In this document: positions 5,629 through 53,768 of the stretch, piece after piece | Layout of the letters: each line of letters begins with the position of its first letter | How positions within the stretch are numbered: position 1 is the first letter of the stretch | Virus record (IMG/VR): IMGVR_UViG_3300042935_001404 | Direction: 5' to 3' (one strand) | Origin: a virus | Taxonomy: Duplodnaviria > Caudoviricetes | Length of the DNA: 64,000 nt | Notes under the pieces: model-generated | The model's database searches: none | The model's input: the letters and a program-made list of their open reading frames with translations, nothing else | What the model was told of the DNA's origin: nothing | Program-made: the position numbers and the translations under genes

Positions 5629-6051
5629 TTATTGATAAATCCAACCTAAATTTAGTGTATTGTGCATCCATGTAAACACAGGCACAGAAAACTCCAATTG
5701 ATAAACACCGTTCCACCCCAAGTAACCTTGCCCAGTCAATGGAGATGCTTTATTAGGGTAGTGTGGGGGATAATCGGGATAGTATATTCCTGCCCATATA
5801 AACTTCGGATCCGTTATTCCAAAGAAACCGATTTCTTTAACAATCACCGCAGTAGAAATATCGTTGTCATCTTTTTTAAAGTGTTCAACTTTTAAACAAC
5901 ACTGGCCTGTTTTTGCAACAAAATCAAAATCAAAATCAGTTGTTTCTGTTAACTGTTGGATTCTTCCCCGGCCATCTACATCTACCTCAACCCAGGGCTC
6001 ACCCACAGGTTCAAGTGTCACACGCATTGTTACCGGGTACTCAGTAGCCAT
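5629..6051 (-). CDS. Hypothetical protein coupled to radical SAM gene
   Basis: 140-aa ORF overlapping stop of 6041..7393. Confidence 0.7.
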   Translation of the reverse strand: MATEYPVTMRVTLEPVGEPWVEVDVDGRGRIQQLTETTDFDFDFVAKTGQCCLKVEHFKKDDNDISTAVIVKEIGFFGITDPKFIWAGIYYPDYPPHYPNKASPLTGQGYLGWNGVYQLEFSVPVFTWMHNTLNLGWIYQ

Positions 6052-7393
6052 GCAGATCCAATATATCAGTTAATTCTGGGTACAATGATCTAGCATCGTA
6101 ACCGTATAGATTGTCCCAACGTCGGCACCAGGCAACCATGTCCTTTAAATGCTGTTCACTATTGGGCAACTGATCCTGTGTCAAAATGTTTAAGCATTGA
6201 TCAATCTGACTTAAAATTGTGCGCGGCAATTGGTTGATGTCGCTTTCGTTATAGTCCACAGTATAGTCGTTGGTTAAGTTGTATTCGTGTATTAAGTTTT
6301 TATAATTGTCAATGTACAGATGCCGCACAGCCAATGGCAATATCATTGGATTTAAAAAAATTGGATTTGTTACATTTAAATTTTTTACATTTATTTTATT
6401 GTCAAGGCAGTAACGCAACAAGGTATGATAAGAGCCAATGGTCAATGTACTGATAGCCGGTCTGGCTGTCACAGTTATATTTGATCTGTTGCAATGTGCA
6501 AGATATTGTTGTATATTTTTCAGTACCAACTGAGTATCAGTGCCCTGTCTCTGGTACGAGTTATGTTCGGTAATAGTTTCAATGCTTACTTCAATTCCCA
6601 CACGGTTAAATTTCTTTAACTTGTTGATCAAACTTTCATTGAATATGGTTCCGTTTGATACAAAACTAAAGTTTAAATCCGTGCGGCCATGTAGAATCAT
6701 ATGGTCAACAAACTCTTCAAATCTTGGTGTTAATAATGTCTCGCCGCCCATGAAATGAACATTATTGAGATCTTTTATATTGACCAGTTCGTTGAGCACA
6801 CGAGTCCATACTGCTTTGTCACGAGTCCAGTCTGTTCCTACATATTGCTGTGCATTTGCATTTCCCCATTTAACTTCTTGCGCGGCAATAGTGCTACTGG
6901 CTTGAGGATGGCACATCTTACAAGCCAGGTTGCAATAGTTTCCCAAGTCAATGTGTAAGTCTATGGGCATTCCATCATAATCACCGTTGTTATTTTTACT
7001 AGATTCAAATTTATCGTAGCCAGGACTTTGCTCGTAACTGTTGGAGAAATTTGTTTTGGTAAAAATAACGCTCTTTTGATTGCATTTATGTCTGCGACTG
7101 GTGCCACTGATTCCTTGCTGATAGTAACAACGACTACAAAAACTGACTGGTGAATCACTAAACATTGCCAGTCGAGCTTGCCGCATAGGTTCACTGTTAA
7201 ACCATTCAGCAATGGTCATTTGAGAGACGTTATAAGTTTTGCCTAAATTGTCCGGGTACAGTTTGTGTGATTCTTGGCAACAAAAACCTAGACTACCATC
7301 CCAGTAGATCTGTAGTTCATACCAGGGACTAGTGCAAAAAATATTTTTATTAGGCACGTTTTTCAATAATTTTATCAGCAAGTCCAAAATCAA
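6041..7393 (-). CDS. Radical SAM/SPASM-twitch protein (true start may be GTG at 7357)
   Basis: CTSPW...CC...CSRC; [11 protein letters not shown]; MGGETL. Confidence 0.9.
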
Positions 7394-8040: not shown

Positions 8041-8694
8041 GATATTAAGTTTGAAATTTTTCCAGAAGACTATGCCTATTCCCGGGTTCAGACAACTTTT
8101 CCGTGGAGCCGAACAGAGTTAATAGCAGACTTTGAACAGGAGGATTGGAAACCATACGGAGCCGAAACTGCTGTTAAACACGACGCTTGGACTGGCAAAC
8201 GGTTTAAAGTGCATCGTCCCCGAAGCTCTAAGTTGCAACAAATTTCTCAATTCTTCAGGCAGGATTCTGTAAAAGATTACGTCATTGAATGCCTGTATCG
8301 AGACAAACCTATCTTACAAATAAACTGGCAAATGTATCCTTGGCGCATGAGCACCAATACTGTGTTACATGCAGAATTTACAAAAGATTTGCCAGGCTTT
8401 GAAAACGGTATTCACTGCGACATGCGACGACTAGTAGGAACTGGTATGATATATCTGGCCGAGGGTGACGATCCAGCCTCAGCCAGTTGCTTTTATGATC
8501 ATCCAGATCGTCACAACCCTCGTCGTGTCACCACCGGCTACGGCGCAGGGTGGGTACACAGCAACGATTGGAATACCTGGCACGATGGTTGGAATCGCAC
8601 TGACAAAACACGCTATAGTATCTTGTTGGCTCTTACTTTGAAACTGGAGAATCAACCACAAGCAACTGATCAAGCGGTGCAAACCACGGTGTAA
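8035..8694 (+). CDS. Putative 2OG-Fe(II) oxygenase
   Basis: HxD (IHCD), later WHDG and R-x-S (RYSIL) typical of the DSBH fold. Confidence 0.65.
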   Translation: MQDIKFEIFPEDYAYSRVQTTFPWSRTELIADFEQEDWKPYGAETAVKHDAWTGKRFKVHRPRSSKLQQISQFFRQDSVKDYVIECLYRDKPILQINWQMYPWRMSTNTVLHAEFTKDLPGFENGIHCDMRRLVGTGMIYLAEGDDPASASCFYDHPDRHNPRRVTTGYGAGWVHSNDWNTWHDGWNRTDKTRYSILLALTLKLENQPQATDQAVQTTV

Positions 8695-9907
8695 TTAGTT
8701 CTGCAAATTCAGGCACGGCTGTTTCAAAAGTTTGTCCACGGCTACGATCAAGGCCGCGAGTGTAACGATGAAATTCCCGGAAGTGATGCTGTTGTCCTTC
8801 CATTGGTGTATTCAAAAAGTTCAACACAATTTCACAATGGTCTTTCCAGTAGCGTTGATGCCACGGCCCAATATCATCCCCTGTCACATACTTTGACAAT
8901 TTATCAGTAATTGCGATTTTAACAGCATCGGGCAAACTTTTCACACACAGCTGATATGGTAAGTGCAACATGTTAAAGTTAGTGCCCAGCCCTTTCTTTG
9001 CAAAGAAATCAAATATCTCATCCAGATAATACACATTCAAACTGTTGACAGTGATACACACGCTAAATTGAAAGTTTTTGTTTGTGCGTTGTGCCTGTAG
9101 GAATCGTTCAAGATTGGCGGAAACCAGATCCCAGGTACTAGAATAGCGAACATATCCACACCTATCTTCAATGTCATCAATGCTGAGATCAAAATAAACT
9201 CGTTTAAATTGCTTTAACAAATTTTCTAACTCATCATTCCAGACAGTGCCATTGGTGCTAAAATGTAGGTCTATGTTTTTTGCAGTGCCTTGATCCACAG
9301 CAGCCTGTAGCACGTCAAAGTTCTTTTTGATCAGCATGGGCTCTGCACCGTAGTAGTCAATGTACACTGCATTAGGCACCCACTTGCTCATGGTGTTCCA
9401 GAGGTCTTGATTGTTGTCGCTGTAACTGGCAGGAATTCTGCGCCAGCGTTTGAGATACTCTGGGTAAGAAACGCCTTCTGCGGGCTGTGCTGCCAATTCC
9501 CAATCTTCACGATACCATTGACTGGACACTTCTGGGTTACAGGTTCTGCATTTCATGTTGCAGGTGTTGCCCATTTTTAGGTCCAGTATTTGCGGTTGAT
9601 CATCACGGTCAGTCACTGGATGATTCATGCTGTTGTGCCACTGTCTGCGTGACTTTTTGCCGGCGTGTTCATCGTCCCAGCAGGCCTGACAACTGGCATG
9701 CTCTTGATTGTTTTCCAACGATTCTTGTATTTCTCTGCGTGTAGGGCTTGTCCATGCTTGTTCTAACGTGTGGGTGTCTAGATATATCTGCTCACCCTGT
9801 GCATCTTCCAGGTATTTTCTACTGTGACAGCACAGATATGTTCTTCCAGAATTGTGCAGGCCCAGGCCTTTGTCGGCTAAAATACAGTATAAATTACTTT
9901 GTTTCAT
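8633..9907 (-). CDS. Radical SAM/SPASM-twitch protein
   Basis: YLCCH...CQAC; GNTCNMKCRTC; YGAEPM. Confidence 0.9.
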   Translation of the reverse strand: MKQSNLYCILADKGLGLHNSGRTYLCCHSRKYLEDAQGEQIYLDTHTLEQAWTSPTRREIQESLENNQEHASCQACWDDEHAGKKSRRQWHNSMNHPVTDRDDQPQILDLKMGNTCNMKCRTCNPEVSSQWYREDWELAAQPAEGVSYPEYLKRWRRIPASYSDNNQDLWNTMSKWVPNAVYIDYYGAEPMLIKKNFDVLQAAVDQGTAKNIDLHFSTNGTVWNDELENLLKQFKRVYFDLSIDDIEDRCGYVRYSSTWDLVSANLERFLQAQRTNKNFQFSVCITVNSLNVYYLDEIFDFFAKKGLGTNFNMLHLPYQLCVKSLPDAVKIAITDKLSKYVTGDDIGPWHQRYWKDHCEIVLNFLNTPMEGQQHHFREFHRYTRGLDRSRGQTFETAVPEFAELITPWFAPLDQLLVVDSPVSK

Positions 9908-14502: not shown

Positions 14503-16155
14503 ATGATTATTTTTACACCAACACGAGCAGACAATAGATCAAATCCGTATCTTTTTCATGTCACATCAGAAATTGGAAAACTTCACGGATTAAAATTTTT
14601 ACCCACAGTGACTTATCCAAATCAAGCATGGACGCAGAAGTCGGCCAAACGAGCCCTGGCTGATCCCAATTCTGTGATTGAATTTAAAGACTGGGCACAC
14701 ATTGATTTTTTTAAGCACAGCAAACGAAAAAAAATAATATTTTTAGATCAATTTTTTATACACAACTACTACAAAAGAGATGTTGGCGGCGTTCATGCAT
14801 TAAATCCAGACCAATACTTTCCAAGACCACGTGATCATGCACCCAGCCCGGCAATTGATCGTTATCCCGATCGGATTGACTACAGCTGGGCCGATCTGAT
14901 AATTTGTGTACAAGAAGAAAATCTATCAGGACCTGAATGGCTTGAGTTTTTCAACAATCCTGGAGCCTATTTTCACACCGACTCGGACCGTGTGATATCC
15001 ATAGTGTCTGGCCTAAACTCTGACCTGTCATATCAAAATGTCTTTCCTCCCAACGTGTTACGTGTGCCGCTGAATTTCTGGTGTGCGTGGGTCACAGCCT
15101 GCAATACACCTGTAGAATACAATGCTGACTATGACAGACCTTACAAATTTGAAGCCTTGTTGGGCGGGTCAAAAGAAAATAGACAATTTGTTTTTCACAA
15201 GCTGAAAAAACACAATCTGCTAGAGCACGGTCTGATCAGTATCAGTGCTCAGACATTCAGATCTCCTACTGACCGCCGTTATCACGATGATTTTTATCGC
15301 AGTCCGGATCTAGATAAGTATGACAACAAAGAAATGTTGGTCCTGCGAAAGGATAGTCGTAAAGGCAATTGGATAGCACACACCACTGGCGCCGCAAGAA
15401 TTTATAACTTTCCACTGGGCAACGAAAAATCTACAACGCATGTTGGTCCGTATGCAAGTTTTTTTATACCACATCGCGTTTACCAAGAATCGTGGTTCAG
15501 CATTGTGGCCGAAAGTATTGTTACAAACTGTGACTTTTATACAGAAAAAACTGCCAAAGCCCTGTTGGGTCGTAGAGTCTTTATTACATTTGGGCCACAG
15601 CACAGCCTGAAAGTGCTCAGAGACAATGGGTTTAAAACTTTTGGTGCGTGGATAGACGAAAGCTATGACGACGAGCCCGACGACGAAATTAGATGGGGTC
15701 TGGCTTTTGAACAGGTTGTTCGATTGATTAATCACCCCAGTTTAAAATCATTACATGTTCAAGCACAAGCAGTGCTTGAACATAATTATCAGTTGGTATC
15801 TGATCAACGATCAATGCTAAAACCCATTGACGACTTTATTCAATCGTTTTTAAATGGTACTGCGCCCAGCTGTGTTGGATCGGTGCCAATGAAACAAAAC
15901 TGGACTCCTGCACAACAGCTGGCAGCAACAAAAAAACATCATCCTGTTCAAATTGAACAGGATTCTCCCGGTGCGGCATTTGCACCCTACTCGCCGGAGA
16001 TACTGCAGGGAACTATTATACGTTCAAAAAATACCACTGTGGTGCAACCTATTGTTATTCAACCAACTCGACGGTTCAATGATCGTGCTATACTACAAGC
16101 TCTGGAGCAGGCACGAGCTGAAACAGCAAAAAAACGGCAAGGATTGGGCCGTTAA
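14503..16155 (+). CDS. Putative glycosyltransferase-like protein (GT10-like C-terminal motif)
   Basis: FSIVAES...FYTEKTAKALL...GFKTF..WIDESYD. Confidence 0.5.
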   Translation: MIIFTPTRADNRSNPYLFHVTSEIGKLHGLKFLPTVTYPNQAWTQKSAKRALADPNSVIEFKDWAHIDFFKHSKRKKIIFLDQFFIHNYYKRDVGGVHALNPDQYFPRPRDHAPSPAIDRYPDRIDYSWADLIICVQEENLSGPEWLEFFNNPGAYFHTDSDRVISIVSGLNSDLSYQNVFPPNVLRVPLNFWCAWVTACNTPVEYNADYDRPYKFEALLGGSKENRQFVFHKLKKHNLLEHGLISISAQTFRSPTDRRYHDDFYRSPDLDKYDNKEMLVLRKDSRKGNWIAHTTGAARIYNFPLGNEKSTTHVGPYASFFIPHRVYQESWFSIVAESIVTNCDFYTEKTAKALLGRRVFITFGPQHSLKVLRDNGFKTFGAWIDESYDDEPDDEIRWGLAFEQVVRLINHPSLKSLHVQAQAVLEHNYQLVSDQRSMLKPIDDFIQSFLNGTAPSCVGSVPMKQNWTPAQQLAATKKHHPVQIEQDSPGAAFAPYSPEILQGTIIRSKNTTVVQPIVIQPTRRFNDRAILQALEQARAETAKKRQGLGR

Positions 16156-17697: not shown

Positions 17698-17979
17698 AAT
17701 CATGCGTAGCAAACCCACTGTGTCAATTGTGGTCAACAGTATATAGTTAGCCAGCATGCCAAAAGATTTCCTAGTATAACTAGCCCAAGCATAGAGGGCG
17801 CAACCAAGGATCCAAATAGGATACAACGTAAGTAAAGGGGGGTTGGGGACGGTAACTGCCATACTAATACTACACCCAATACTAATAGCCCAAGCAAGCA
17901 ACTCAATAGCAAAGCGAATCCTGTTAGACTTAAAATCATCTCGTATCCAGTCAAATGTGTTAAGCAATATATCGTTCAT
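17692..17979 (-). CDS. Small multi-TM membrane protein
   Basis: Three hydrophobic segments; start reassigned to MNDIL. Confidence 0.65.
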   Translation of the reverse strand: MNDILLNTFDWIRDDFKSNRIRFAIELLAWAISIGCSISMAVTVPNPPLLTLYPIWILGCALYAWASYTRKSFGMLANYILLTTIDTVGLLRMIL

Positions 17980-18973
17980 AAACCTGTTCACTGGCCAAAT
18001 TTTTGCCTTTGGCTTCGCATTGGATATCAAATTGATCAGCAAAGGTCAATGCCCAATCAGTCACAGCGGAATTCCAATAAAAGTCACTGTGGGCTCGCAG
18101 TTTTTGTTTTTTAAAGCCCTGTGCCAACAATGCAGCCATGTCCGGCAACACCGTGGCGTCATGCCCCACCAGATAGTCTTCTCTACTGACTGAATAATGG
18201 AGTGCAGGCCTTACTCCACGCCAGGAATCAATCACACGCGAAACTCTATCGTCGGAGGGTTGAATGTAGTCTCCTGTACGGATCCAGTGATGGTGTATAT
18301 CAAGCACGAGGGCACAGTCTTTGGCAAGTTCAAGACTTGAGTCGATTCCCCAGGCATTTTCGTCGTTTTCGATGGTGATGCAGTTTCTTGCTTCGGGGCT
18401 AAGACGCTGGAGGGCAGAGCGAATACCCTCGGGGCCTTGTTTACCCGAGATGTGTACATTGATTTTAAAGTCTTGAAAAGTTTTGCCGTAGCCCATCCAC
18501 CTGACCATATCTGCATGATATTCAAACTCCTGTATGCTTCTATTTACGATGCCAGGATTCTCACTGGCCAACACACAGAACTGTCCAGGGTGAAAACTCA
18601 ATCTAACATCCAGTCTACGAGCAGTTTCACCAATGGGTGCAAAGATCTTGGCACAATGGTCTTGAATCTCCGGACGTTGCCACCAGTCAATCCAACTGGG
18701 CTCAGTGTAGCCTTGTAGCATTTCGCTACCTAATCGTACCATACGTCGGCCTTCGGGCAAGGTAGCCACACGTTCAATCATCCGCACAGCCGCTGAGGTG
18801 TTGTGATTCATGATATCCCACTGGCGTTGTTCAGCTTCGTCAGCGTGTTCACGAAGCCATCGCATGGTGGTTGATCTGCCGTTTAGGTCACGGTCCACTG
18901 CATTGACTTTCATGCCGCCACATTCTGAGGGGTCATTAAGCCACTTGCAACAAAAGCCAATTCGTTTATTCAT
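17960..18973 (-). CDS. uvsE: UV damage repair endonuclease (UvsE/UVDE)
   Basis: RLSFHPGQFCVLAS, NVHISG, TIENDE, VLDIHHHW, HYSVS, LRAHSD, EAKGK. Confidence 0.93.
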   Translation of the reverse strand: MNKRIGFCCKWLNDPSECGGMKVNAVDRDLNGRSTTMRWLREHADEAEQRQWDIMNHNTSAAVRMIERVATLPEGRRMVRLGSEMLQGYTEPSWIDWWQRPEIQDHCAKIFAPIGETARRLDVRLSFHPGQFCVLASENPGIVNRSIQEFEYHADMVRWMGYGKTFQDFKINVHISGKQGPEGIRSALQRLSPEARNCITIENDENAWGIDSSLELAKDCALVLDIHHHWIRTGDYIQPSDDRVSRVIDSWRGVRPALHYSVSREDYLVGHDATVLPDMAALLAQGFKKQKLRAHSDFYWNSAVTDWALTFADQFDIQCEAKGKNLASEQVYERYIA

Positions 18974-18979
18974 GCTAGT

Positions 18980-19008
18980 ATTATAGCAATAAATCTATTT
19001 GTTGTCAA
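18980..19008 (-). promoter_or_regulatory. sigma70-type promoter of uvsE
   Basis: TTGACA-17-TATAAT, 6 nt before ATG. Confidence 0.85.
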
Positions 19009-19562
19009 GGCTTTAGCAGTTCGATTACATTTTCTAATGTGTCTTTGGTAAGATTTTCAAATTCAGCCAATTCGGGATGGACGTCACCTTCGTGATCAAC
19101 CAACACCCATTGTACTGCCGGATTGCTTGAGATGGCATCTCGGATAAAACGCTGGTAATTTGTTGCTCGATGTGCTGTTAACCGATCTGCACTCTTGGGT
19201 CTTTCGGTCCAGTTGAATCCCAATAGTAGCACAACATCGCTTTGTCCAGACACTAGGTGTATGCTGATCAATTCGTCTTTGTTGTCTATTTCAAAAGTAA
19301 AACTACCTTCATACAGTCGTACCCCTCGGGGGCGATCTAGCTCGGCATAGATTGATGCTGGAACATACATATTGCACATTTCATTCATTTTGCGTTTTAA
19401 CAACTCACGTGCTTTGCCTGCATCATTGCAAACAACATTGTCAGTGCTACACCCACGCCAGGTGCGCCAGCCACCCCAGATGGCAGCAATGTCTTTGAGC
19501 ACAGTGACATCAACGTCTGGTGGTAACGCAGTGGAGTCTGCTACAACCCAATTGATTCTCAT
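19005..19562 (-). CDS. Rossmann-like protein resembling MptE/Maf (DUF115) transferase-fold proteins
   Basis: WVVA...IWG...DNVVCND...VVLLLGFN pattern; weak. Confidence 0.4.
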   Translation of the reverse strand: MRINWVVADSTALPPDVDVTVLKDIAAIWGGWRTWRGCSTDNVVCNDAGKARELLKRKMNEMCNMYVPASIYAELDRPRGVRLYEGSFTFEIDNKDELISIHLVSGQSDVVLLLGFNWTERPKSADRLTAHRATNYQRFIRDAISSNPAVQWVLVDHEGDVHPELAEFENLTKDTLENVIELLKP

Positions 19563-20854
19563 TCAACAGCCTTTAGTGTTTTCCATTTGTAGTTGCCCAG
19601 ACACACCCAGGCAAAGGCACCATTGGGCATAGGATCAGCATTGAACACAATGTCGCCCTTGGTTCCGGAATAGTTGGGAACTGTTGTTCCGTGTCCTATC
19701 ATGTACTGTGCCACACGCAATTTTTTAACAGCAGTTATGCCATCTGTTCCAATGGTCAGTTGAGGTAATTTATTAACACCAATGTTCAGTGCTTGGTCGC
19801 GACTGGTGCCAATGTAGGCTTCTTGATTTTTGTACTTGCCCGCAGATATACTAATTTCTTCGTCCCAGACATTCAGAGCAGAGTCTGGATGTTCTGTATT
19901 AATGCCCAGCCGCTTTTTAACCACCACGACAGTTTCGTTTAAACTGGTTTCGCCTTCGACTATTAGGTCTCGAAGGCGACCTACTTTTTGCAAGTTACTT
20001 TGTGTGATAGTTCGTGCCAACTGATTGCCAGCAACCAATGGGTGATCATCCACTGTGACATTGTCAAATTTAATACCGGTCTTTTTAATTTCTTCCGCGA
20101 CCTGCTCGACCAACCGATCTTTCCAGTCTTGATCCAGTTGTTTCAATGTCTTGGCACTTATGTCAGCTGCCAACACATTCCAACTTTGATTGTCTGTGTT
20201 GATAGATCCTGTGACTGCCAGGTCCTTGACTGTGACTGAATCTACAAACTTGGCAGCACGAGCAGTCAATGTGTTTTCAACCACTGTTGTTTCGTCTAAA
20301 ATTGTCAACTGGCAAGATGTAGCACGATCATCAATGCCTGTACTGGAAAAATTGTTTAACAATTCAATTTTTAATTTGGCCATATTTTCATCTACACGCT
20401 GATGAATAACAGTATTGATATCAATCGACCCAATGGTTGCTACTGTGCGGTGCACTACCATTTGATTAAGCGTTTTTTCAATCTTTTCTAACCATACCAC
20501 GTCCGTGAACAATTCTGTAACTGCGATTCGTGTGATACGATCTACTTCTTGGTCAACAGTGGTCTTAATGAGATTGTTGTTGACAAACTGTGCAACGCCA
20601 GGAACTGTGCCTGCGGCAAATAACTCAGCAACCGTGGTTTTAACAGCTTCAAGGATTTCAGGCATGGTTGTTGAGTTGGCAAATTTTGAAAGTATACGAT
20701 CTTGTGTGTACTTTAATATCTTATCTTCAAGGGGTTTGGACCACTCAGTTGATGTAAGCACTCCGTACACATGATCATTGACTGTTTCAGCAATTTGCTG
20801 TTCTATCATGCGTGTTATTACATCAGTATCAATCATGTTTTCTCCGTGTGTCAA
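19559..20854 (-). CDS. Probable virion fibre protein (coiled-coil N-terminus, fibre-like C-terminus)
   Basis: SNLQKVGRL, RLGINTEHP, GTKGDIVFN...AWVC fibre-type motifs. Confidence 0.55.
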   Translation of the reverse strand: MTHGENMIDTDVITRMIEQQIAETVNDHVYGVLTSTEWSKPLEDKILKYTQDRILSKFANSTTMPEILEAVKTTVAELFAAGTVPGVAQFVNNNLIKTTVDQEVDRITRIAVTELFTDVVWLEKIEKTLNQMVVHRTVATIGSIDINTVIHQRVDENMAKLKIELLNNFSSTGIDDRATSCQLTILDETTVVENTLTARAAKFVDSVTVKDLAVTGSINTDNQSWNVLAADISAKTLKQLDQDWKDRLVEQVAEEIKKTGIKFDNVTVDDHPLVAGNQLARTITQSNLQKVGRLRDLIVEGETSLNETVVVVKKRLGINTEHPDSALNVWDEEISISAGKYKNQEAYIGTSRDQALNIGVNKLPQLTIGTDGITAVKKLRVAQYMIGHGTTVPNYSGTKGDIVFNADPMPNGAFAWVCLGNYKWKTLKAVE

Positions 20855-21746
20855 GTGTTACACAATGAAACCCACCGCCCAATGTACGGCTATGGCTTAG
20901 CGTATGAGGTATAGCATCAATGCCTTTTGACTTTAATATAGTAATTAGTGCTGTTTGTGCGGCATCTACAATAACTGTTTCAGGATCCAGCACCAACATA
21001 TTCATGGCAATCCATTTGGACGCATACGGATATTGATAAAATCCTTGCGGCACTACGTCGTTGATGTAGATCTTTTCCCAGGAATCAAACGCCGCTGGGC
21101 AGTTTGATTCAGTTACACGACTGGCGTTCAACAATACCAATCCTTCCCGCACAGGCACAATAGTACTGTCAATGTGTACGCCTGAATAAAAATTGCACAA
21201 CTCAATGTCAATGTCAGGGAATTGATTGCACAACCAATCATATGCGGCCATGTTGCCACTGTGACTTTGTAGGTACAACCAAGTGTCCCCTAGTCTACAC
21301 ACGTTGGCAGCATCTAAAATCATGTCTTGATCCCGGGGCATTGTTAACACTTTTTTAGCTTGGCGTATGATTTGTTGCAGTGCTTCGGTTTCTTGATTGC
21401 GGCAAGGATACATCATGTTTACATCAACCACAGTGTCGCCTGCCACCAATAATCTATCACGTGGACAATAGTTGTACATTCCATCTAGTTCAACAAAGTC
21501 CATTGGTTTAGGTCTGTAAACCACTGCACCATAATCAACCAGTATCTCTGTTAACTGATCAAGTTCCGCATTGGCTTCTTCAACAATCCATTCGGGCACA
21601 GACCCAGCTGGCACAGGTGTTTCGGTCCAGGATGTTTTAGACGATTCTATAGCAAACACAGGATCATTGCTGGGCCAATTGGCGTTGGTTGCACTGCCAA
21701 CCACTATGGCTTCCAGTGGATCCCATTCGTTACGACTGTCTATCAT
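20829..21746 (-). CDS. Amidinotransferase (StrB1 / glycine amidinotransferase family)
   Basis: NEWDPLEAIVVG, CPRD, DAAN, HIDST, GGGFHCVTLD catalytic motifs. Confidence 0.9.
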   Translation of the reverse strand: MIDSRNEWDPLEAIVVGSATNANWPSNDPVFAIESSKTSWTETPVPAGSVPEWIVEEANAELDQLTEILVDYGAVVYRPKPMDFVELDGMYNYCPRDRLLVAGDTVVDVNMMYPCRNQETEALQQIIRQAKKVLTMPRDQDMILDAANVCRLGDTWLYLQSHSGNMAAYDWLCNQFPDIDIELCNFYSGVHIDSTIVPVREGLVLLNASRVTESNCPAAFDSWEKIYINDVVPQGFYQYPYASKWIAMNMLVLDPETVIVDAAQTALITILKSKGIDAIPHTLSHSRTLGGGFHCVTLDTRRKHD

Positions 21747-22258
21747 AGGTGCCCTGTTATTTGCAAGGTATACCGATCTTCAAGTCCAATATTGGCAGCC
21801 ATGTGCGGTGCATCATACACCCACTCTGACGTTTGTCCTGCTTTCCAGTTAACATACGGAACACCATCTACTTCCAGATAGTGCCCAGGCTTCCAGTCTT
21901 CTAACAACACCAATGCTCGACGTATCGACTTCTCGCGACCTTGCAAATTAAACAGTTCAATATAACGTTTATACAGGTCTCTATGTACCGGCATAACTGT
22001 GCCTGTGGGCATACGATAAAATGCCAGACCAATATCTTGCCATCCTTGTGCTCGATACATATCTATAAACTTTGGTGCCCAGTCTGGAAGTCTATGCCGC
22101 ATGTCACATAGTTCGCCACAAATTTTACTTTGGTATCCCTGGGTTTGCCACAATTCTAAACTTGCAGGATCATTGAAAGGCTCTCGAATGTAATCTAGTG
22201 TTTTAAATTCTTCGTCCCAGAATTTATATAACTGGTATTTCCGTGGATTGTATATCAT
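21743..22258 (-). CDS. Cupin/2OG-Fe(II) oxygenase (Asp/Asn hydroxylase-like)
   Basis: MPVHRD (HxD), PHMAANIG...RYTLQI. Confidence 0.7.
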   Translation of the reverse strand: MIYNPRKYQLYKFWDEEFKTLDYIREPFNDPASLELWQTQGYQSKICGELCDMRHRLPDWAPKFIDMYRAQGWQDIGLAFYRMPTGTVMPVHRDLYKRYIELFNLQGREKSIRRALVLLEDWKPGHYLEVDGVPYVNWKAGQTSEWVYDAPHMAANIGLEDRYTLQITGHL

Positions 22259-23499
22259 TTTGTATTGCGTGTGTTTCCGTAGTGTATCACTTTGATGTCA
22301 GGTGTTGTTTCTACTAACGTGCGCCACGGATCAACAACAACACTGCCTTTGGGTATGTTGCAATAGAATCCATCCTTGACTGCGTTTCCGGTGTAGCCGT
22401 ATGTTACCTGTCGATTGTGGGCCAGCAACAGCACACAAGGACCAATCAACTCCGACACTACTTCTGCTGGATCATCTGCTAGAGGATCAACATATCTAAC
22501 ATTAAATCCAGATTCTTTTACAAAATGCCCAATCAACGTTGAGTATGATCCGATGCAGTAGGCAACATCTGGCTTGTAGGCTTTGCCATGAATTACAATG
22601 CTCATGCCGCGTTCTTTTGCTGTGTCTGCTAAAAACTTAGCAAGATTTTTTGCTTGTATTTCTCGAGCATGCATGATGGTATCAAACATGTCATAGCCAA
22701 GATCATATTCTTCCGCCAACCAACGTAGTGCAATGTTGTCTCTGGGATGACAAGCACCTGCATCGCCCATGCCTGCTGTCATGTATTTGGGACCCATGAT
22801 ACGCATGGTTGAACGAGCCAATGCATTTGTGACCACATCCACATTGATGTTGCCAATCTTCATGGCAAAGTCCTGTATCATGTTTGCCAGTCCAATCTTG
22901 GCCGAAATAAATGTGTTGTAAAAGATCTTAATTGCTTCGCATTCGTCCCAGGTGCCAATTTCGTAGCGTGGGTTGTTTTGCATAACTTGATTGTAGATAT
23001 CTACCAACTCACTGGCCAGGGCGTTTGGATTGCCGTCTTCGGTGCCAATCATGATCATTTCTGGGTTGACCATATCCCATTTAACTGATCCCATGGCAAT
23101 CAAGTAAGGGTTATATAAGAACTGATGCTGTTTATCCAGCAATGGTACAAAGTATTTGCGAGTGGTACCGGGTAATACTGTGGAAATCAACACAACTTTC
23201 TTAGGTGATGTGGCATACCGGTTGATGTTTGTAATGGCTTCCTTGACTGCATCATGTCCAAAATCTCGTGGAGTCAAATGACTGGAGGGAGTGCTGCCGT
23301 CATAACCCTCGGCGTGTGGGGTAGGCACAGCAACAAAAATCCACTCACTTTTGTTTATGGTTTCTTCAATCGTGCAAACTTGTACCAGGTCACTGGTTCT
23401 TGGGCTTATGTCGTAGCCTCGCACTGTAAACTTTTCTGCCAGCACTTCTGCACATTCCAGACCTAATTTTCCAATGCCAATGAAGCCTATATTTTTCAT
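22255..23499 (-). CDS. UDP-glucose/GDP-mannose 6-dehydrogenase family protein
   Basis: GFIGIGKLG, FVAVPTP, STVLPGTT, YNPY, EAIKIFYNTF, GACHPRD, GKAYKP. Confidence 0.92.
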   Translation of the reverse strand: MKNIGFIGIGKLGLECAEVLAEKFTVRGYDISPRTSDLVQVCTIEETINKSEWIFVAVPTPHAEGYDGSTPSSHLTPRDFGHDAVKEAITNINRYATSPKKVVLISTVLPGTTRKYFVPLLDKQHQFLYNPYLIAMGSVKWDMVNPEMIMIGTEDGNPNALASELVDIYNQVMQNNPRYEIGTWDECEAIKIFYNTFISAKIGLANMIQDFAMKIGNINVDVVTNALARSTMRIMGPKYMTAGMGDAGACHPRDNIALRWLAEEYDLGYDMFDTIMHAREIQAKNLAKFLADTAKERGMSIVIHGKAYKPDVAYCIGSYSTLIGHFVKESGFNVRYVDPLADDPAEVVSELIGPCVLLLAHNRQVTYGYTGNAVKDGFYCNIPKGSVVVDPWRTLVETTPDIKVIHYGNTRNTK

Positions 23500-23690
23500 A
23501 TTATGAGTATTCTTTCGGATAGATTGTGTTCTTATGTTCTTTATACAGAACAATTTTATTGATTGTGTATTAATTTATCGGCTTACAGTACCATGCCCAA
23601 AAAAAAGTAAACGAGTTTATCTATACCTACTGAATTTTATTGCTGTAGAGCAATAAATATTCGGATAATAATAACTATAAAGGTGATAGC

Positions 23691-24806
23691 ATGAGTAAGA
23701 GACTAATTATGGGCCTAGCCAGCCTTGTTTTAGTAATGTCTGCAACGGCACAAACAACCACTACGTCTGGCACAACCGGTGGAACAACCACAGGCACAAG
23801 TACACTGATCAATCAAGGTACCTACGACTCCAAGACTTTGGTTGATACCAACAGCACCAGCAATAGTACCAGCACAGTTACTTCAAATAGCAATACTAAT
23901 AGCAACAGCAACAGCACCAGCACAGCCGCGGTCAACAGTACCAGCAACAATACCAACACCAACACCAGTGTAAACACAAATAACAACATCAACTCTGGTA
24001 CCAGTACAGTTAACAACAACAACGTTAACTCAGGCACAATGACCTACAACAACAACAATGTCAACTCGGGCACAATGACCTATAACAACAACAATGTCAA
24101 CGCCAGTACAAGTACCAATGTAAACACAAACAATAATATTAACTCAGGCACAATGACCTACAACAACAACAACGTCAGCACTGCCACTAACAACAACAAC
24201 AATGTCAGCACCAGCACAGCCACCAACAACAACATCAACACTGGCGACATGACCAACCGCAATATCAACACGTCAACCAGTACCAGCAACAATGTCAACA
24301 ACAATGTGAACTCTAGCACCGCAGTCAATCAAAATGTACAAACAGGTGATATGACCAACCGCAATATCAACGAAAGCACAATCACACAACGAGTGATTCA
24401 ACCCCCTCCGACTGCTGTAGCACCTGCCATGCTGAGCGGCGGCAATGCTGACCTATGTAGTACTGGTAGTTCCGGATCGGTACAAACACAAGTGTTTGGT
24501 GTTAGTTCGGGCGGCACAGTGCGTGACATGAATTGCGAACGATTAAAGTTATCTAAAACACTATATGACATGGGTATGAAGGTTGCGGCAGTTGCTACTA
24601 TGTGTCAAGACCGTCGTGTGTTTGATGCCATGCTGGCAGCTGGTACACCTTGCCCTTATGAAGGCAAAATTGGTGAACAAGCCAAAGCAAGTTGGGAAGC
24701 TAATCCGCATAAGATTCCAAAGTTGGATGAGGTAAAATTAGATGACACTTATAAGAAAGTTGGCATTGGCGCTATCCTTGGCGTTCTTGTCCACAAATTA
24801 TTCTAA
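23691..24806 (+). CDS. Exported Asn/Thr-repeat protein with Cys-rich C-terminal domain
   Basis: Signal peptide; NNNNVNSGTMTY repeats; C...CERLKLS...MCQD...TPCP. Confidence 0.8.
   Translation: MSKRLIMGLASLVLVMSATAQTTTTSGTTGGTTTGTSTLINQGTYDSKTLVDTNSTSNSTSTVTSNSNTNSNSNSTSTAAVNSTSNNTNTNTSVNTNNNINSGTSTVNNNNVNSGTMTYNNNNVNSGTMTYNNNNVNASTSTNVNTNNNINSGTMTYNNNNVSTATNNNNNVSTSTATNNNINTGDMTNRNINTSTSTSNNVNNNVNSSTAVNQNVQTGDMTNRNINESTITQRVIQPPPTAVAPAMLSGGNADLCSTGSSGSVQTQVFGVSSGGTVRDMNCERLKLSKTLYDMGMKVAAVATMCQDRRVFDAMLAAGTPCPYEGKIGEQAKASWEANPHKIPKLDEVKLDDTYKKVGIGAILGVLVHKLF
23980..24370 (+). repeat. In-frame tandem repeats (36-nt unit, poly-AAC)
   Basis: AACTCAGGCACAATGACCTACAACAACAAC-like units; second family GACATGACCAACCGCAATATCAAC x2. 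Confidence 0.85.
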
Positions 24807-28267: not shown

Positions 28268-29383
28268 CTAATTAGCAGGGTCAAATGTTAAATTATAGTT
28301 GTTACCCCTAATGCCGTCAATCATGTTGGTATATCGGCGAAATTTATCATTTAGTTCAGAATCATACTGGTAGTCTTTGATTACATTAAGCACGTATGAT
28401 TTAACATCAGGCCTAACCGTCAAAGACTGCTCAATTTGATCCTTGAACCGAGCCATGTCAGCAGGTGGCACAGAATTTATTCTCATGTATTCTTCGCCGC
28501 CATGAAGAGAAAAGTGTAATTCAATATTTTGAATACAGCACCAATCTATCAGTGCAGGAAGAGAATAAATGCTGGTGTGCTGAAATGTATGATTAACCCC
28601 TAGTTCTAACTTTTCATTTAACACACTTTTTACTTTTTTTAAATTATTTTCAATGGTTAAAAAATCACTGCCAAATCGAATATAATCATTTTGTTTGCCT
28701 GTGCCTTCAAGGCTGATGACAAAATTAACAGACTTAAACTTTTTTAACAACAATAATGTTGCATCATTGATTGTTGTCATGTTTGTTACAAACAACAGTT
28801 CTACTGCGGGTGGGTCTGGTACACTGGATAGGATATCAACTAGTCCGGGCACCATAAAAGGTTCACCACCAGTGAAATGCAAGTATGTGACTGTGGGCAG
28901 AACTTTAAGATAAAACTCTTTAAATGCGTCGGAGTCCCACCACTTGTGCTCACTTGATGTCACACTCCAATTGACCCCAACCGAGTTATATTCTGCTTTA
29001 TTTTGTATGAACTCTGACCAAATGCTAGAACTCGAGTATGGACTGCACATGATACAGCGAAGATTGCAAAAATTTCCCAATTTAAATTCTACATGCCACG
29101 GATCTGTATTGGCAGCGTCGCCGTGACGTTTATTGGATGTTGTTCGCAAACTGCTGTATCCTAGGTTCTCGTCATACCAGCATTGATAACATCTAGGATC
29201 TTCTATGCCTGCATCAAGATCTGCTGCCAGGCTGTCCATTTCTACACGCCATTGTGAGTAATCACGAATGGTGTAGGATTTATGTCCATCGTGAGGTCTT
29301 TCACGGAATTGACAACATGGCAGTAGATTACCGCTGGTCTCTATACTCAATCCGTGTCGTGCTAATACACATGATTTAGTCAT
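28268..29383 (-). CDS. Radical SAM/SPASM-twitch protein
   Basis: PCCQF...CYQC; GNFCNLRCIMC; TGGEPF; start reassigned to MTKSC. Confidence 0.9.
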   Translation of the reverse strand: MTKSCVLARHGLSIETSGNLLPCCQFRERPHDGHKSYTIRDYSQWRVEMDSLAADLDAGIEDPRCYQCWYDENLGYSSLRTTSNKRHGDAANTDPWHVEFKLGNFCNLRCIMCSPYSSSSIWSEFIQNKAEYNSVGVNWSVTSSEHKWWDSDAFKEFYLKVLPTVTYLHFTGGEPFMVPGLVDILSSVPDPPAVELLFVTNMTTINDATLLLLKKFKSVNFVISLEGTGKQNDYIRFGSDFLTIENNLKKVKSVLNEKLELGVNHTFQHTSIYSLPALIDWCCIQNIELHFSLHGGEEYMRINSVPPADMARFKDQIEQSLTVRPDVKSYVLNVIKDYQYDSELNDKFRRYTNMIDGIRGNNYNLTFDPAN

Positions 29384-29384
29384 A

Positions 29385-29747
29385 TTATGCTGTGTGCTTT
29401 TCGATAACTCCATCCCACTCAGGGCCCGGATCCGTTTCCATATATGTGTTAACACGATTACGGATGTCGTCGTAGAAACTGTCTAGTTCTTTATTCCAAC
29501 TACCAATTAAATGTTCCAGTGCTTGATGGCAATAGTTCCAATCACGCTTTCGGTAATTTATTAACAAATTGTTATGAAGATTTGTTTTGCTTTCAGTCAG
29601 CGGCAACTCCATAATTGGAATCGTTTCAACCACACAGTATGCAGTTACCTCTGTATTTCCCGGGATGACGCGAATGGTATCCAATTCCAATACTGTATAC
29701 TTTTCTCGATAACTTTCAATTTGATCAGGGTCAATAATAATGTTCAC
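29385..29747 (-). CDS. Protein resembling the C-terminal tail/TPR-like extension of class III nucleotide cyclases
   Basis: LELDTIRV...VTAY, YRKRDWN, PGPEWDGVIEK; no catalytic core. Confidence 0.5.
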   Translation of the reverse strand: MNIIIDPDQIESYREKYTVLELDTIRVIPGNTEVTAYCVVETIPIMELPLTESKTNLHNNLLINYRKRDWNYCHQALEHLIGSWNKELDSFYDDIRNRVNTYMETDPGPEWDGVIEKHTA

Positions 29748-53048: not shown

Positions 53049-53768
53049 TTAACTATTTAGCATATAATACTGCTCTACTCGTTTCCACCAAAGACCGCAG
53101 TATTTTTCAAACTCGTTGCCCTCTAGTACAAATTCCTGGTATTCAGGTGTGGTAAGCACATTGCCCATGTCATCAGTTGTGGGTTTGACACACATTAAAA
53201 TAACACCTTTTTTAATCTTTGTTCCGTGCAGTTCGTTATGTGCTTCTGCATAGGCGCAAAGTTGTAAAAAGTAATCGTCGATCCATTCACGTTTTTTGGG
53301 CTTGTTGGTTTGTTTGTAGTCTATGATGGCTTCTTCGTTTAAGTGCAGGCCGGCAGCATCTGTTGTGCCTGCATACACCTTGGGAAAATATAGTGGAACT
53401 TCGTAGCCCCAAAACTCATTCACCCGATTGGTAATTCCTTCATTAATCACTGTTTCTGCCATGGCATGACTTGCCCACCCAAACGGGTTTGTACCACGGT
53501 CTTTTAGTTCGCCATTCTTGACATAGTGTTCCAGGTAGGTGTGCATACGTGTGCCGCGGTTAGCAGCCTCAGTGGTAATCTGTTGTGCCTTTTCGTAGCC
53601 AACACGTCGGCGCCATTGTTCAAGAATTAACTTTTTTTCTTCAGGCTTGGTTTTGTCAAGGATAGTCGTGACACTGGGTAACTTGTTGCCGTCAGGAGTG
53701 GCATAAAAACGTTTGCCATTTACTTCTACACGCGGCACCGGTGTGTAATTAAATTTTGGATTGTACAT
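53049..53768 (-). CDS. PD-(D/E)xK exonuclease (RecB/Cas4-like phage family)
   Basis: LPSVTTIL, GTRMH, AGTTD...IIDYKQT, QLCAYA. Confidence 0.88.
   Translation of the reverse strand: MYNPKFNYTPVPRVEVNGKRFYATPDGNKLPSVTTILDKTKPEEKKLILEQWRRRVGYEKAQQITTEAANRGTRMHTYLEHYVKNGELKDRGTNPFGWASHAMAETVINEGITNRVNEFWGYEVPLYFPKVYAGTTDAAGLHLNEEAIIDYKQTNKPKKREWIDDYFLQLCAYAEAHNELHGTKIKKGVILMCVKPTTDDMGNVLTTPEYQEFVLEGNEFEKYCGLWWKRVEQYYMLNS

What the first reader, a model, noticed from the sequence alone, without database searches (positions are those of the whole stretch)
19005..23499. Amidinotransferase, oxygenase and nucleotide-sugar dehydrogenase operon running into a fibre gene and a Maf-like gene
Seen: five tightly overlapping genes in the order UDP-glucose/GDP-mannose dehydrogenase family, 2OG/cupin oxygenase, StrB1-type amidinotransferase with intact Asp/His/Cys motifs, fibre-like protein, Rossmann-like protein. 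Established: StrB1-type enzymes move an amidino group from Arg to amino-cyclitol or amine acceptors. Inference: a pathway making a guanidino-bearing uronic sugar or residue to decorate the virion fibre, host surface or DNA; I do not know of a characterised phage equivalent.
Basis: partly seen in the sequence, partly recalled or inferred. Interest (0 to 1): 0.7.

Follow-up and report, generated by a model that had tools for sequence, protein, structure and literature searches.

The report
Phage arginine-amidinotransferase sugar-tailoring operon
A giant lake-water phage carries a tightly coupled operon (a sugar dehydrogenase, a small iron/2-oxoglutarate oxygenase and a streptomycin-type amidinotransferase, followed by a fibre-like protein and a Maf-like protein) that most likely puts a positively charged guanidino group on a sugar-like molecule; the product is not shown and I found no phage equivalent that has been characterised.

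Summary
Five minus-strand genes (23499..19005) overlap by 4-8 nt. They are a divergent UDP-glucose/GDP-mannose-family dehydrogenase, a 171-aa Fe(II)/2OG-oxygenase-fold protein of a family absent from Pfam, a StrB1-type amidinotransferase (PDB 1bwd, E 2e-64, catalytic Asp/His/Cys aligned), a protein modelled as an intertwined homotrimer (fibre-like), and a 185-aa protein with a Maf/MptE-like fold.

In 80 related IMG/VR phage loci the oxygenase abuts the amidinotransferase in 74 and the dehydrogenase lies upstream in 68. The fibre-like gene (42) and the Maf-like gene (35) are variable cargo.

The oxygenase-amidinotransferase pair recurs in cyanophage S-SCSM2R among glycosyltransferases. The oxygenase domain also occurs fused to a mini DegT sugar aminotransferase.

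Best reading (about 0.5): a nucleotide-sugar or aminocyclitol-like tailoring module that makes a guanidino sugar, perhaps a uronic one, for a glycan. The acceptor, the source of the amine and the target are unknown. Rivals are a small guanidino metabolite, protein modification, DNA modification and an antibiotic.

This scan has noted the same amidinotransferase module on other phage genomes. The papers I found only annotate such genes. I rate it a new variant of a known kind, interest 0.6.

The parts
22255..23499 (-). ugd: divergent UDP-glucose/GDP-mannose-family (NDP-sugar 6-) dehydrogenase, 414 aa
   Evidence: Pfam PF03721 and PF00984; phrog_9148 3e-88. TIGR03026 scores 137 bits, below its 189.8 cut-off. 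The catalytic Cys motif GDAGACHPRD aligns with GFGGSCFPKD of 3vtf, while the C-terminal TDDxRES motif is not kept. It is 55% and 46% identical to the ugd genes of Synechococcus phage Bellamy and pelagiphage HTVC008M. Present in 68 of 80 related loci.
21743..22258 (-). g171: small Fe(II)/2-oxoglutarate oxygenase-fold protein, a family not in Pfam
   Evidence: AF2 pLDDT 93.6. Foldseek gives P. putida P4H 4j25 at E 2e-5. VIA gives Z 13.2 (9qn0), 12.6 and 12.3 (prolyl hydroxylases), 11.9 (PolD), 11.6 (PasI) and 9.3 (KanJ). H92, D94, H152 and R162 are invariant in 26 sequences. Homologous to S-SCSM2R ORF308 (hhalign 99.6%). Abuts amid in 74 of 80 loci.
20829..21746 (-). amid: StrB1-type L-arginine amidinotransferase, 305 aa
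   Evidence: PDB 1bwd 2e-64; AGAT 3e-30; HsvA 1e-28; SxtG 4e-26. Catalytic residues align. D145, H191, D193, H294 and C295 are invariant in 22 sequences including two paralogues. More than 7,500 90%-identity clusters exist in metagenomes.
19559..20836 (-). g431: fibre-like protein, variable cargo
   Evidence: No Pfam, PHROG or PDB sequence hit. Residues 150-425 are modelled as an intertwined homotrimer: ipSAE 0.88, best of 3 controls 0.00, about 1000 contacts. Language-model leads to PTL_trimer, Mtd_N, DUF2793 and T4 gp9/10 score 0.90 or less. Present in 42 of 80 loci; median identity 47%, the most divergent gene after g185.
19005..19562 (-). g185: minimal Maf/MptE-like (sialyltransferase-like) fold protein, variable cargo
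   Evidence: AF2 pLDDT 91.7. VIA gives Maf glycosyltransferase 5mu5 Z 10.5 (167 aligned), SteA 9.2, MptE HPPK 8.2 and CstII 7.9. The Atlas shape search gives TM 0.68 to a viral cluster with PF01973 in 47% of members. No Pfam hit and Foldseek finds nothing below 1e-3. Present in 35 of 80 loci, in 8 of them without g431.
18980..19008 (-). consensus sigma-70-type promoter (TTGACA-17-TATAAT, with TG) in front of uvdE; marks the downstream end of the operon
   Evidence: 12 of 12 matches. uvdE (17960..18973, Pfam UvdE 1.6e-31) is therefore a separate unit, although it is syntenic in 68 of 80 loci.

Best explanation
This is a translationally coupled operon of a roughly 340-kb lake-water jumbo phage. 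Its conserved core is a carbohydrate-tailoring module.

Shown by sequence or fold:
- a phage-type NDP-sugar 6-dehydrogenase homologue;
- a small Fe(II)/2OG oxygenase;
- a StrB1-type amidinotransferase with a complete Cys-His-Asp catalytic set.

Inferred mechanism: the amidinotransferase takes the amidino group of L-arginine onto its active-site Cys295, releasing ornithine. It then passes the group to a primary amine on a sugar-phosphate, nucleotide-sugar or aminocyclitol-like acceptor, making a guanidino sugar. The oxygenase oxidises or hydroxylates the same scaffold. It may create the keto group that an aminotransferase encoded elsewhere converts to the amine, or it may hydroxylate the product. 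The dehydrogenase oxidises C6 to a carboxylate, which would give a zwitterionic guanidino-uronic sugar.

The product is then probably built into a glycan. In this phage and about half of its relatives, the two downstream genes offer a candidate target and a candidate transferase: a fast-evolving trimeric fibre-like protein and a minimal Maf/MptE-like protein. They are accessory, not part of the conserved module.
For: Enzyme identities.

Co-conservation and order ugd->g171->amid in IMG/VR relatives: amid 80/80, g171 78/80 (abutting in 74), ugd 68/80 (abutting g171 in 62).

Links to sugars:
1. ugd is adjacent to the pair.
2. P0369 is a fusion of a mini DegT aminotransferase (Pfam 9.7e-16) with a g171-type domain, and it is followed by an NDP-sugar epimerase/dehydratase.
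3. The homologous pair ORF308/ORF309 of the cultured cyanophage S-SCSM2R sits among five glycosyltransferases, a mini DegT-like gene and a radical SAM gene.
4. In the complete relative G001 an amidinotransferase paralogue lies about 5 kb from an NDP-sugar epimerase/dehydratase plus a DegT aminotransferase.
5. The nearest characterised enzyme, StrB1, acts on a phosphorylated aminocyclitol, and it scores twice as high as the amidinotransferases that act on glycine or polyamines.
6. g185 has the fold of Maf and sialyl-type transferases.
7. Structural neighbours of g171 include oxygenases that act on sugars: PolD, PasI, KanJ, EvdO2 and HygX.
Against: The operon and the 64-kb window hold no aminotransferase. 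They also hold no Pfam-recognisable glycosyltransferase: the GT2 gene found near the module in some relatives is missing here. The amine acceptor and the transfer step therefore have no assigned gene nearby.

The dehydrogenase falls below the TIGR03026 cut-off and its C-terminal nucleotide-binding motif is not kept, so even a nucleotide-sugar substrate is an assumption.

Twelve relatives show no ugd in the DNA held (one has too little upstream flank), and two lack g171.

The best structural neighbours of g171 are protein prolyl hydroxylases. No cellular gene cluster with this trio was found that could anchor the chemistry. No product, expression or virion data exist for this phage.
Confidence: 0.5

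Rival explanations
1. A small-molecule guanidino metabolite. The amidinotransferase amidinates a free amine (glycine to guanidinoacetate, lysine to homoarginine, or putrescine/spermidine to agmatine- or hirudonine-like polyamines). The purpose would be to rewire host nitrogen metabolism or to make stronger DNA counter-ions for packaging a 340-kb genome. The oxygenase would act on arginine or on the product.
For: AGAT, HsvA (polyamine-specific) and SxtG are all significant relatives (E 3e-30 to 4e-26). No aminotransferase or glycosyltransferase lies in the operon. Ocean AMG surveys read viral genes of this pathway as creatine metabolism (PMC11360552). The pair survives without ugd in eleven to twelve relatives.
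Against: The match to StrB1 is twice as strong as the match to AGAT or HsvA (221 against 108 and 103 bits). This reading does not explain the conserved ugd, the DegT fusion of the oxygenase family, or the glycosyltransferase-rich context in S-SCSM2R.
Confidence: 0.2
2. Post-translational modification of a phage or host protein. The P4H-like oxygenase hydroxylates Pro, Lys or Asp residues of the fibre-like protein or another virion protein. The amidinotransferase converts lysine or hydroxylysine side chains into homoarginine-like residues. The dehydrogenase supplies UDP-glucuronate for glycosylating the hydroxylated residue.
For: The top structural neighbours of g171 are protein prolyl hydroxylases (Z 12.6 and 12.3). 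Viral collagen prolyl and lysyl hydroxylases are also listed (Z 11.3 and 9.5). A fibre-like gene follows the enzymes here. In S-SCSM2R a 'glycine amidinotransferase' and an ofd1-like prolyl dihydroxylase were detected in purified virions (PMC12801897). Maf proteins glycosylate a protein directly (my own knowledge of the family; fold match).
Against: I know of no amidinotransferase of the StrB1/AGAT family that acts on protein side chains. The fibre-like gene is absent from about half of the relatives that keep the enzymes. The S-SCSM2R proteins found in virions are ORF266 and ORF269, not the ORF308/309 pair that matches this operon.
Confidence: 0.1
3. DNA hypermodification. The enzymes build a guanidino-bearing or sugar-bearing group that ends up on a base of the phage genome as protection against restriction.
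For: Jumbo phages often modify their DNA. The window is rich in radical SAM genes, as are some thymidine-hypermodification clusters (my own knowledge). uvdE, a DNA enzyme, is a conserved neighbour.
Against: uvdE has its own consensus promoter. The operon holds no DNA glycosylase or transglycosylase, no base hydroxymethylase and no DNA-binding domain. A literature search found no guanidino DNA modification in phages.
Confidence: 0.07
4. A secreted aminoglycoside-like antibiotic made by the infected cell to inhibit competitors, as proposed for S-SCSM2R.
For: The nearest characterised enzyme is from streptomycin biosynthesis. The authors of PMC12801897 list the amidinotransferase under 'antibiotic synthesis genes'.
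Against: No cyclitol synthase, kinase, resistance gene or exporter is present. The context is glycosyltransferases and structural-type genes. An antibiotic gives little benefit in a lytic cycle lasting hours.
Confidence: 0.05

Closest known systems
StrB1, L-arginine:inosamine-phosphate amidinotransferase of Streptomyces griseus (PDB 1bwd), streptidine branch of streptomycin biosynthesis
   Same: The alignment covers the whole length (E 2e-64). It includes the residues I recall as catalytic (Asp179/His227/Cys332) and as guanidino-binding (Asp108/Asp229), and the C-terminal GGGFHC(V/A)TLD motif. Both presumably use arginine as the amidino donor.
   Different: The phage enzyme is about 40 residues shorter: it lacks roughly StrB1 138-171. 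It has no inositol dehydrogenase, StsC-type aminotransferase or kinase beside it. Its partners are a UGD-family dehydrogenase and a small 2OG oxygenase. The acceptor is unknown.
ORF308 (2OG-Fe(II) oxygenase family) and ORF309 (inosamine amidinotransferase) of Synechococcus phage S-SCSM2R (PQ898602; PMC12801897)
   Same: The same oxygenase-then-amidinotransferase pair with overlapping genes. g171 against ORF308 gives hhalign 99.6% (31% identity). amid against ORF309 gives 33% identity over 99% of the length.
   Different: In S-SCSM2R the pair lies in a T4-like cyanophage, flanked by glycosyltransferases, a mini DegT-like gene and a radical SAM gene, with no ugd, fibre-like or Maf-like gene. Its function is only annotated there (as 'antibiotic synthesis'), not tested.
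Radical-SAM plus 'glycine amidinotransferase' cluster of Campylobacter phages CP220/CPt10 (PMC2853527)
   Same: A phage amidinotransferase (25% identity, E 2e-16) preceded by a roughly 173-aa ORF and surrounded by radical SAM genes and nucleotide-sugar transferase-like genes. The window also holds six radical SAM genes.
   Different: The 173-aa upstream ORF shows no detectable homology to g171. There is no ugd. The relation is distant.
ugd-centred sugar clusters of marine T4-like phages (Synechococcus phage Bellamy gp227; Pelagibacter phage HTVC008M gp162)
   Same: The same phage subfamily of UGD-like dehydrogenase (55% and 46% identity over the whole length), in tightly packed tailoring operons.
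   Different: Their partners there are a NadE-like amidotransferase, a carbamoyltransferase, a methyltransferase and glycosyltransferases. There is no amidinotransferase.
Maf flagellin glycosyltransferase (PDB 5mu5) and the MptE-like family PF01973
   Same: g185 matches the central domain in fold: Z 10.5, 167 of 185 residues aligned. It also matches a viral MptE-like cluster at TM 0.68.
   Different: g185 is only 185 aa against 632 aa. It has no sequence-level membership. No donor pathway for CMP-ulosonic acids was found in five related genomes (NeuB and CTP_transf_3 absent).

Membership tests
Amidinotransferase family (StrB1/AGAT) of the guanidino-group-modifying (pentein) superfamily | Full-length sequence similarity to a characterised amidinotransferase | tested here: met
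   1bwd E 2e-64 over residues 2-126 and 138-302; AGAT 3e-30; HsvA 1.4e-28; SxtG 3.6e-26. Hydrolases of the superfamily (ADI, DDAH) score only E 0.2-0.8.
Amidinotransferase family (StrB1/AGAT) of the guanidino-group-modifying (pentein) superfamily | Catalytic Cys-His-Asp set and the two guanidino-binding Asp residues | tested here: met
   C295, H191 and D145 align with StrB1 C332, H227 and D179. D97 and D193 align with D108 and D229. D145, H191, D193, H294 and C295 are invariant and D97 is kept in at least 90% of 22 sequences. The roles of these residues are from my recall of the StrB1 and AGAT structure papers.
Amidinotransferase family (StrB1/AGAT) of the guanidino-group-modifying (pentein) superfamily | Transfer of the amidino group from L-arginine to an amine acceptor; identity of the acceptor | not testable with these tools
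   Needs an enzyme assay.
UDP-glucose/GDP-mannose dehydrogenase family | N-terminal NAD-binding domain and central dimerisation domain | tested here: met
   PF03721 2.5e-14 and PF00984 2.4e-15, both above the Pfam cut-offs.
UDP-glucose/GDP-mannose dehydrogenase family | Catalytic cysteine in the GGxCxxKD-type motif | tested here: met
   GDAGACHPRD aligns with GFGGSCFPKD of 3vtf.
UDP-glucose/GDP-mannose dehydrogenase family | C-terminal UDP/GDP-binding domain (PF03720) and the score cut-off of TIGR03026 | tested here: inconclusive
   PF03720 is not reported at E <= 0.01. TIGR03026 scores 137 bits against a cut-off of 189.8. The alignment to 3vtf runs into the C-terminal domain (AYKPD against AFKPN), but the TDDxRES motif is replaced.
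Fe(II)/2-oxoglutarate-dependent oxygenase superfamily | Double-stranded beta-helix fold | tested here: met
   The model has pLDDT 93.6. VIA gives Z 13.2 to 9.2 over residues 1-171, and all 50 listed chains are 2OG oxygenases. Foldseek against PDB gives E 2e-5, and BFVD hits are viral 2OG oxygenases.
Fe(II)/2-oxoglutarate-dependent oxygenase superfamily | HxD/E...H iron triad and a basic residue about 10 positions after the distal His that binds 2OG | tested here: met
   H92, D94, H152 and R162 (in an RYT motif) are invariant in 26 sequences of 39-81% identity. They sit at strand ends as expected. I did not inspect the geometry in the model.
Fe(II)/2-oxoglutarate-dependent oxygenase superfamily | Membership of a curated sequence family (Pfam, NCBIfam or PHROG) | tested here: not met
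   No hit in Pfam, PHROGs or NCBIfam. g171 is therefore a separate, unnamed family, with 931 representatives at E <= 1e-3.
Maf / MptE-like family (PF01973) | Fold of the central Maf/MptE domain | tested here: met
   5mu5 Z 10.5 (rmsd 4.0, 167 aligned), 9hmy Z 9.2, 8sd5 Z 8.2, 2p56 Z 7.9, against a background of about Z 5-6. The Atlas gives TM 0.68 to a viral cluster with PF01973 in 47% of members.
Maf / MptE-like family (PF01973) | Sequence membership | tested here: not met
   No Pfam hit for any of 17 members at E <= 0.05. hhalign to a phage ORF that weakly hits PF01973 gives only 34% probability.
Phage tail fibre / receptor-binding protein | Elongated intertwined homotrimer | tested here: inconclusive
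   This is a model only. ipSAE is 0.88 in three runs against 0.00 for the best of 3 controls, with about 1000 contacts and pLDDT 87. The mark was reached by 20 of 30 proteins solved as pairs of one chain and by 1 of 23 solved as single chains. The calibration used two copies, whereas this job used three.
Phage tail fibre / receptor-binding protein | Sequence or profile membership in a fibre family; presence in virions | tested here: inconclusive
   No Pfam, PHROG or PDB hit. Language-model leads to PTL_trimer, Mtd_N, DUF2793 and gp9/10 score 0.90 or less. Presence in virions is not testable here.

The most novel reading that the evidence does not exclude
Abundant freshwater and marine phages make a guanidino (arginine-derived amidino) sugar, here probably a guanidino-uronic acid, and attach it to their own receptor-binding fibres with a minimal Maf-like transferase. 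That would be a virus-encoded, positively charged glycan modification of a kind I found described for no virus. The new small 2OG-oxygenase family would provide the oxidation step that replaces the dehydrogenase of the streptidine pathway.
Probability: 0.25. Interest if true: 0.8.

Novelty: new variant of a known kind. Interest (0 to 1): 0.6.

Why it matters
The amidinotransferase and its partner oxygenase are very common in aquatic viromes: more than 7,500 and more than 2,000 clusters at 90% identity, respectively. This phage itself recurs in lake-water metagenomes of 24 studies from 2017 to 2024. Yet no phage member has been assayed, and published genomes label such genes 'glycine amidinotransferase', creatine metabolism or 'antibiotic synthesis'.

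If the product is a guanidino sugar on virions or on the infected cell surface, it would be a new glycan chemistry in viruses. It could bear on host recognition, superinfection exclusion and the arginine/nitrogen budget of infected cells. It would also give a function to an unnamed 2OG-oxygenase family and to the recurrent g550-type domain. A cultured carrier of the homologous gene pair (S-SCSM2R on Synechococcus WH7803) makes the question directly testable.

Tried and rejected
- Sequence families for g171, g431 and g185 in Pfam, PHROGs, NCBIfam and PDB (single sequences and profiles) gave nothing usable.
- Foldseek against PDB for g185 gave nothing below 1e-3. The Maf match came only from the exhaustive VIA search.
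- The scan of bacterial and archaeal genomes for cellular relatives of amid returned phage contigs binned into MAGs, one lone gene in a deltaproteobacterial MAG, and a broken copy in a Blastocatellia genome. No cellular trio was found.
- CP220 gp085 and HTVC008M gp163 (ORFs of similar size in similar positions) are not detectably homologous to g171.
- I suspected that the g550-type domain is a GT10-like glycosyltransferase, from a motif I recalled. Nothing supported this: no Pfam hit, no PDB profile hit, no PF00852 match (that search also rang in no control genome), and only 'hypothetical' relatives. It stays a lead.
- A CMP-ulosonic-acid donor for the Maf-like protein: NeuB and CTP_transf_3 were not found in five related, at least 98% complete genomes.
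- No RNA holder was listed among the sequencing runs, so nothing can be said about expression. I did not lay reads.
- No whole genome is held for the window. I used a complete relative (G001, 94% identical amid) instead.
- I could not obtain a Streptomyces str cluster to test the StrG lead.

Full report
**What is there**

On the minus strand of the window, five ORFs run head to tail from 23499 to 19005:
- ugd, 22255..23499;
- g171, 21743..22258;
- amid, 20829..21746;
- g431, 19559..20836;
- g185, 19005..19562.

Each stop overlaps the next start by 4 nt, and amid/g431 overlap by 8 nt if the ATG at 20836 is used. A 12-of-12 sigma-70-type promoter with an extended -10 lies at 19008->18980, just in front of the next gene, uvdE. 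The five genes are therefore one unit and uvdE is a separate one.

The window belongs to a large phage. It holds GroEL, ClpP, a ClpX-like ATPase, ribonucleotide reductase, DNA ligase, pstS, tail-fibre-like genes and six radical SAM genes. Its relatives in IMG/VR are contigs of about 340 kb, one of them complete with terminal repeats. The DNA of this stretch is held by lake-water metagenomes of 24 studies.

**The enzymes**

*ugd.* It matches the NAD-binding and central domains of the UDP-glucose/GDP-mannose dehydrogenase family and PHROG 9148 (3e-88). The catalytic cysteine motif is kept. It nevertheless falls below the NCBIfam subfamily cut-off, and the C-terminal nucleotide-binding motif is not conserved. 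It is 55% and 46% identical to the dehydrogenases of cyanophage Bellamy and pelagiphage HTVC008M. Those sit in other sugar-tailoring clusters, with glycosyltransferases, a NadE-like amidotransferase, a carbamoyltransferase and a methyltransferase.

*amid.* It has no Pfam hit, but it matches StrB1 (PDB 1bwd) at E 2e-64 over its whole length. That score is twice the score against Arg:Gly amidinotransferase, HsvA or SxtG. D97, D145, H191, D193, H294 and C295 align with StrB1 D108, D179, H227, D229, H331 and C332. These positions are invariant or nearly so in 22 sequences that include two distant paralogues.

*g171.* It hits no curated family. A 26-sequence alignment has invariant H92-x-D94, H152 and R162, and the AlphaFold model is confident (pLDDT 93.6). 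The model matches only Fe(II)/2OG oxygenases: Foldseek E 2e-5 to a bacterial prolyl hydroxylase, and VIA Z 13.2 to 9.2 for 50 of 50 listed chains. Those chains include prolyl hydroxylases and also oxygenases that act on sugars, namely PolD, PasI, KanJ, EvdO2 and HygX. The viral library gives phage 2OG oxygenases.

**The two downstream genes**

*g185.* It folds confidently (pLDDT 91.7). An exhaustive structure comparison puts the Maf flagellin glycosyltransferase first (5mu5, Z 10.5, 167 residues aligned). SteA, the MptE pyrophosphokinase and the CstII sialyltransferase follow, well above a background of Z 5-6. A shape search of the ESM Atlas finds a viral cluster carrying PF01973 at TM 0.68, and the language-model search gave the same lead. 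Sequence methods do not see the relation.

*g431.* It has no family. Residues 150-425 are modelled as a heavily interdigitated homotrimer: score 0.88 in three runs, best of three controls 0.00, about 1000 contacts, partner pLDDT 87. The mark was reached by 20 of 30 proteins solved as pairs of one chain and by 1 of 23 solved as single chains, and that calibration used two copies, not three. Together with weak leads to fibre families and its fast divergence (median identity 47%), 'fibre-like' is plausible but not proven.

**Conservation**

I examined 80 of the 198 IMG/VR loci that encode a relative of amid (62-95% identity).
- g171 is present in 78 and abuts amid in 74.
- ugd is present in 68 and abuts g171 in 62.
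- uvdE follows in 68.
- g431 is found in only 42 and g185 in only 35. Each occurs without the other, and many loci go straight from amid to uvdE.
- One subclade of twelve loci shows no ugd in the DNA held, although one of those has too little upstream flank to tell.

Other inserts at the variable site include a 245-aa ORF, radical SAM genes, a SAM synthetase and a further 2OG oxygenase. The conserved unit is therefore ugd-g171-amid, and within it the g171-amid pair. The fibre-like and Maf-like genes are cargo of a variable slot.

**Context elsewhere**

The g171-amid pair also occurs in the cultured T4-like cyanophage S-SCSM2R as ORF308/ORF309. The hhalign probability is 99.6% for the oxygenase, and the amidinotransferase is 33% identical. 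There the pair sits inside a run of five glycosyltransferases with a mini DegT-like gene and a radical SAM gene. The authors list it under antibiotic synthesis, without a test (PMC12801897).

Campylobacter phages CP220 and CPt10 carry a distant amidinotransferase among radical SAM genes and sugar-transferase-like genes (PMC2853527). Their upstream ORF is not detectably related to g171.

A profile search of 1.84 billion representatives found 931 relatives of g171, some of them fused.
- P0369 joins a mini DegT aminotransferase to a g171-type domain and is followed by an NDP-sugar epimerase/dehydratase.
- Six proteins of about 590 aa join g171 to a domain that also occurs in window gene g550 (14503..16155). 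One of them directly follows an amidinotransferase.

In the complete relative G001, a second amidinotransferase paralogue is preceded by two genes with this g550-type domain. It lies about 5 kb from an NDP-sugar epimerase/dehydratase and a full-length DegT aminotransferase.

No trio was found in cellular genomes.

**Interpretation**

The families are secure. The pathway is inferred. The simplest reading that uses all three conserved enzymes and the recurring partners (DegT, dehydratase, glycosyltransferases) is a carbohydrate-tailoring module. In it an amine on a sugar-phosphate, nucleotide sugar or cyclitol-like scaffold is amidinated from arginine, the scaffold is oxidised by the 2OG enzyme, and C6 is oxidised to a carboxylate.

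What speaks against it:
- the operon has no aminotransferase and no recognisable glycosyltransferase;
- the nucleotide-binding part of ugd is divergent;
- the nearest folds to g171 are protein hydroxylases.

I put this reading at about 0.5. The rivals are a small guanidino metabolite (0.2), protein modification (0.1), DNA modification (0.07) and an antibiotic (0.05).

Attachment to the g431 fibre by g185 is an attractive local hypothesis for this phage. It cannot be the general role of the module, because half of the relatives lack both genes.

**Novelty**

I found no paper that characterises a phage amidinotransferase. Published genomes only annotate them. Earlier notes of this scan describe the same amidinotransferase module on other phage genomes, with mini-DegT, radical SAM and glycosyltransferase partners, and read it as a guanidino-sugar pathway. 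My results agree.

What this report adds:
- the ugd-g171-amid variant of the module;
- the fold-level identification of g171 and g185;
- the Rosetta-stone fusions of the g171 family;
- the finding that the fibre-like and Maf-like genes are variable cargo.

The enzymes belong to known kinds, and the combination is an uncharacterised variant.

Noticed in passing
window 14503..16155 (+); L099 12279-14565; proteins P0269, P0275, P0277, P0286, P0317, P0339: Residues about 320-435 of g550 form an uncharacterised domain (motif ES/T-x6-Y-S/T-EK ... PFV..PP.TL ... GFKTF ... DESYD). It recurs beside amidinotransferases, lies opposite ugd in 43 of 80 relatives, and is fused to g171-type oxygenases. The motif reminds me of GT10 fucosyltransferases, but no tool supported that.
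   Followed up: partly
L007 339-1199 and L008 2308-3168: In two relatives the ugd gene is split into two pieces by a 286-aa ORF with weak Phage_endo_I/DUF7487 matches. This looks like the insertion of a homing endonuclease or mobile intron.
   Followed up: no
window 1943..3169, 6041..7393, 8633..9907, 28268..29455, 53749..55056, 56042..56965 (all -): Six radical SAM genes lie in one 64-kb window. At least two carry the SPASM/twitch domain at the N-terminus rather than the usual C-terminus. The same kind of gene follows the amidinotransferase paralogue in G001.
   Followed up: partly
G001 (record of L006) 129-139 kb = L099: The complete relative has a second amidinotransferase module: ThyX, an NDP-sugar epimerase/dehydratase, a DegT aminotransferase, a 943-aa gene on the other strand, two genes with the g550-type domain, an amidinotransferase paralogue and radical SAM genes. 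It also has a mini-DegT at 82.6 kb and a second g171-like ORF at 38 kb.
   Followed up: partly
window 18980..19008 (-): A perfect TTGACA-17-TATAAT promoter with an extended -10 TG lies directly in front of uvdE, overlapping the end of g185.
   Followed up: no
L023 9493-10590; L018 4194-4790; L006 14297-15013: The slot between amid and uvdE, and the region just beyond it, is variable cargo space. It holds a SAM synthetase in L023, a second 2OG-FeII_Oxy_3 oxygenase in L018, and a GT2 glycosyltransferase 5-8 kb downstream in some relatives that is absent from the window.
   Followed up: partly
window 18900..23700: Near-identical DNA (at least 72% of the sampled words) is held by 24 lake-water or freshwater metagenome runs from 24 studies, 2017-2024. 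This is a recurrent freshwater phage population.
   Followed up: no
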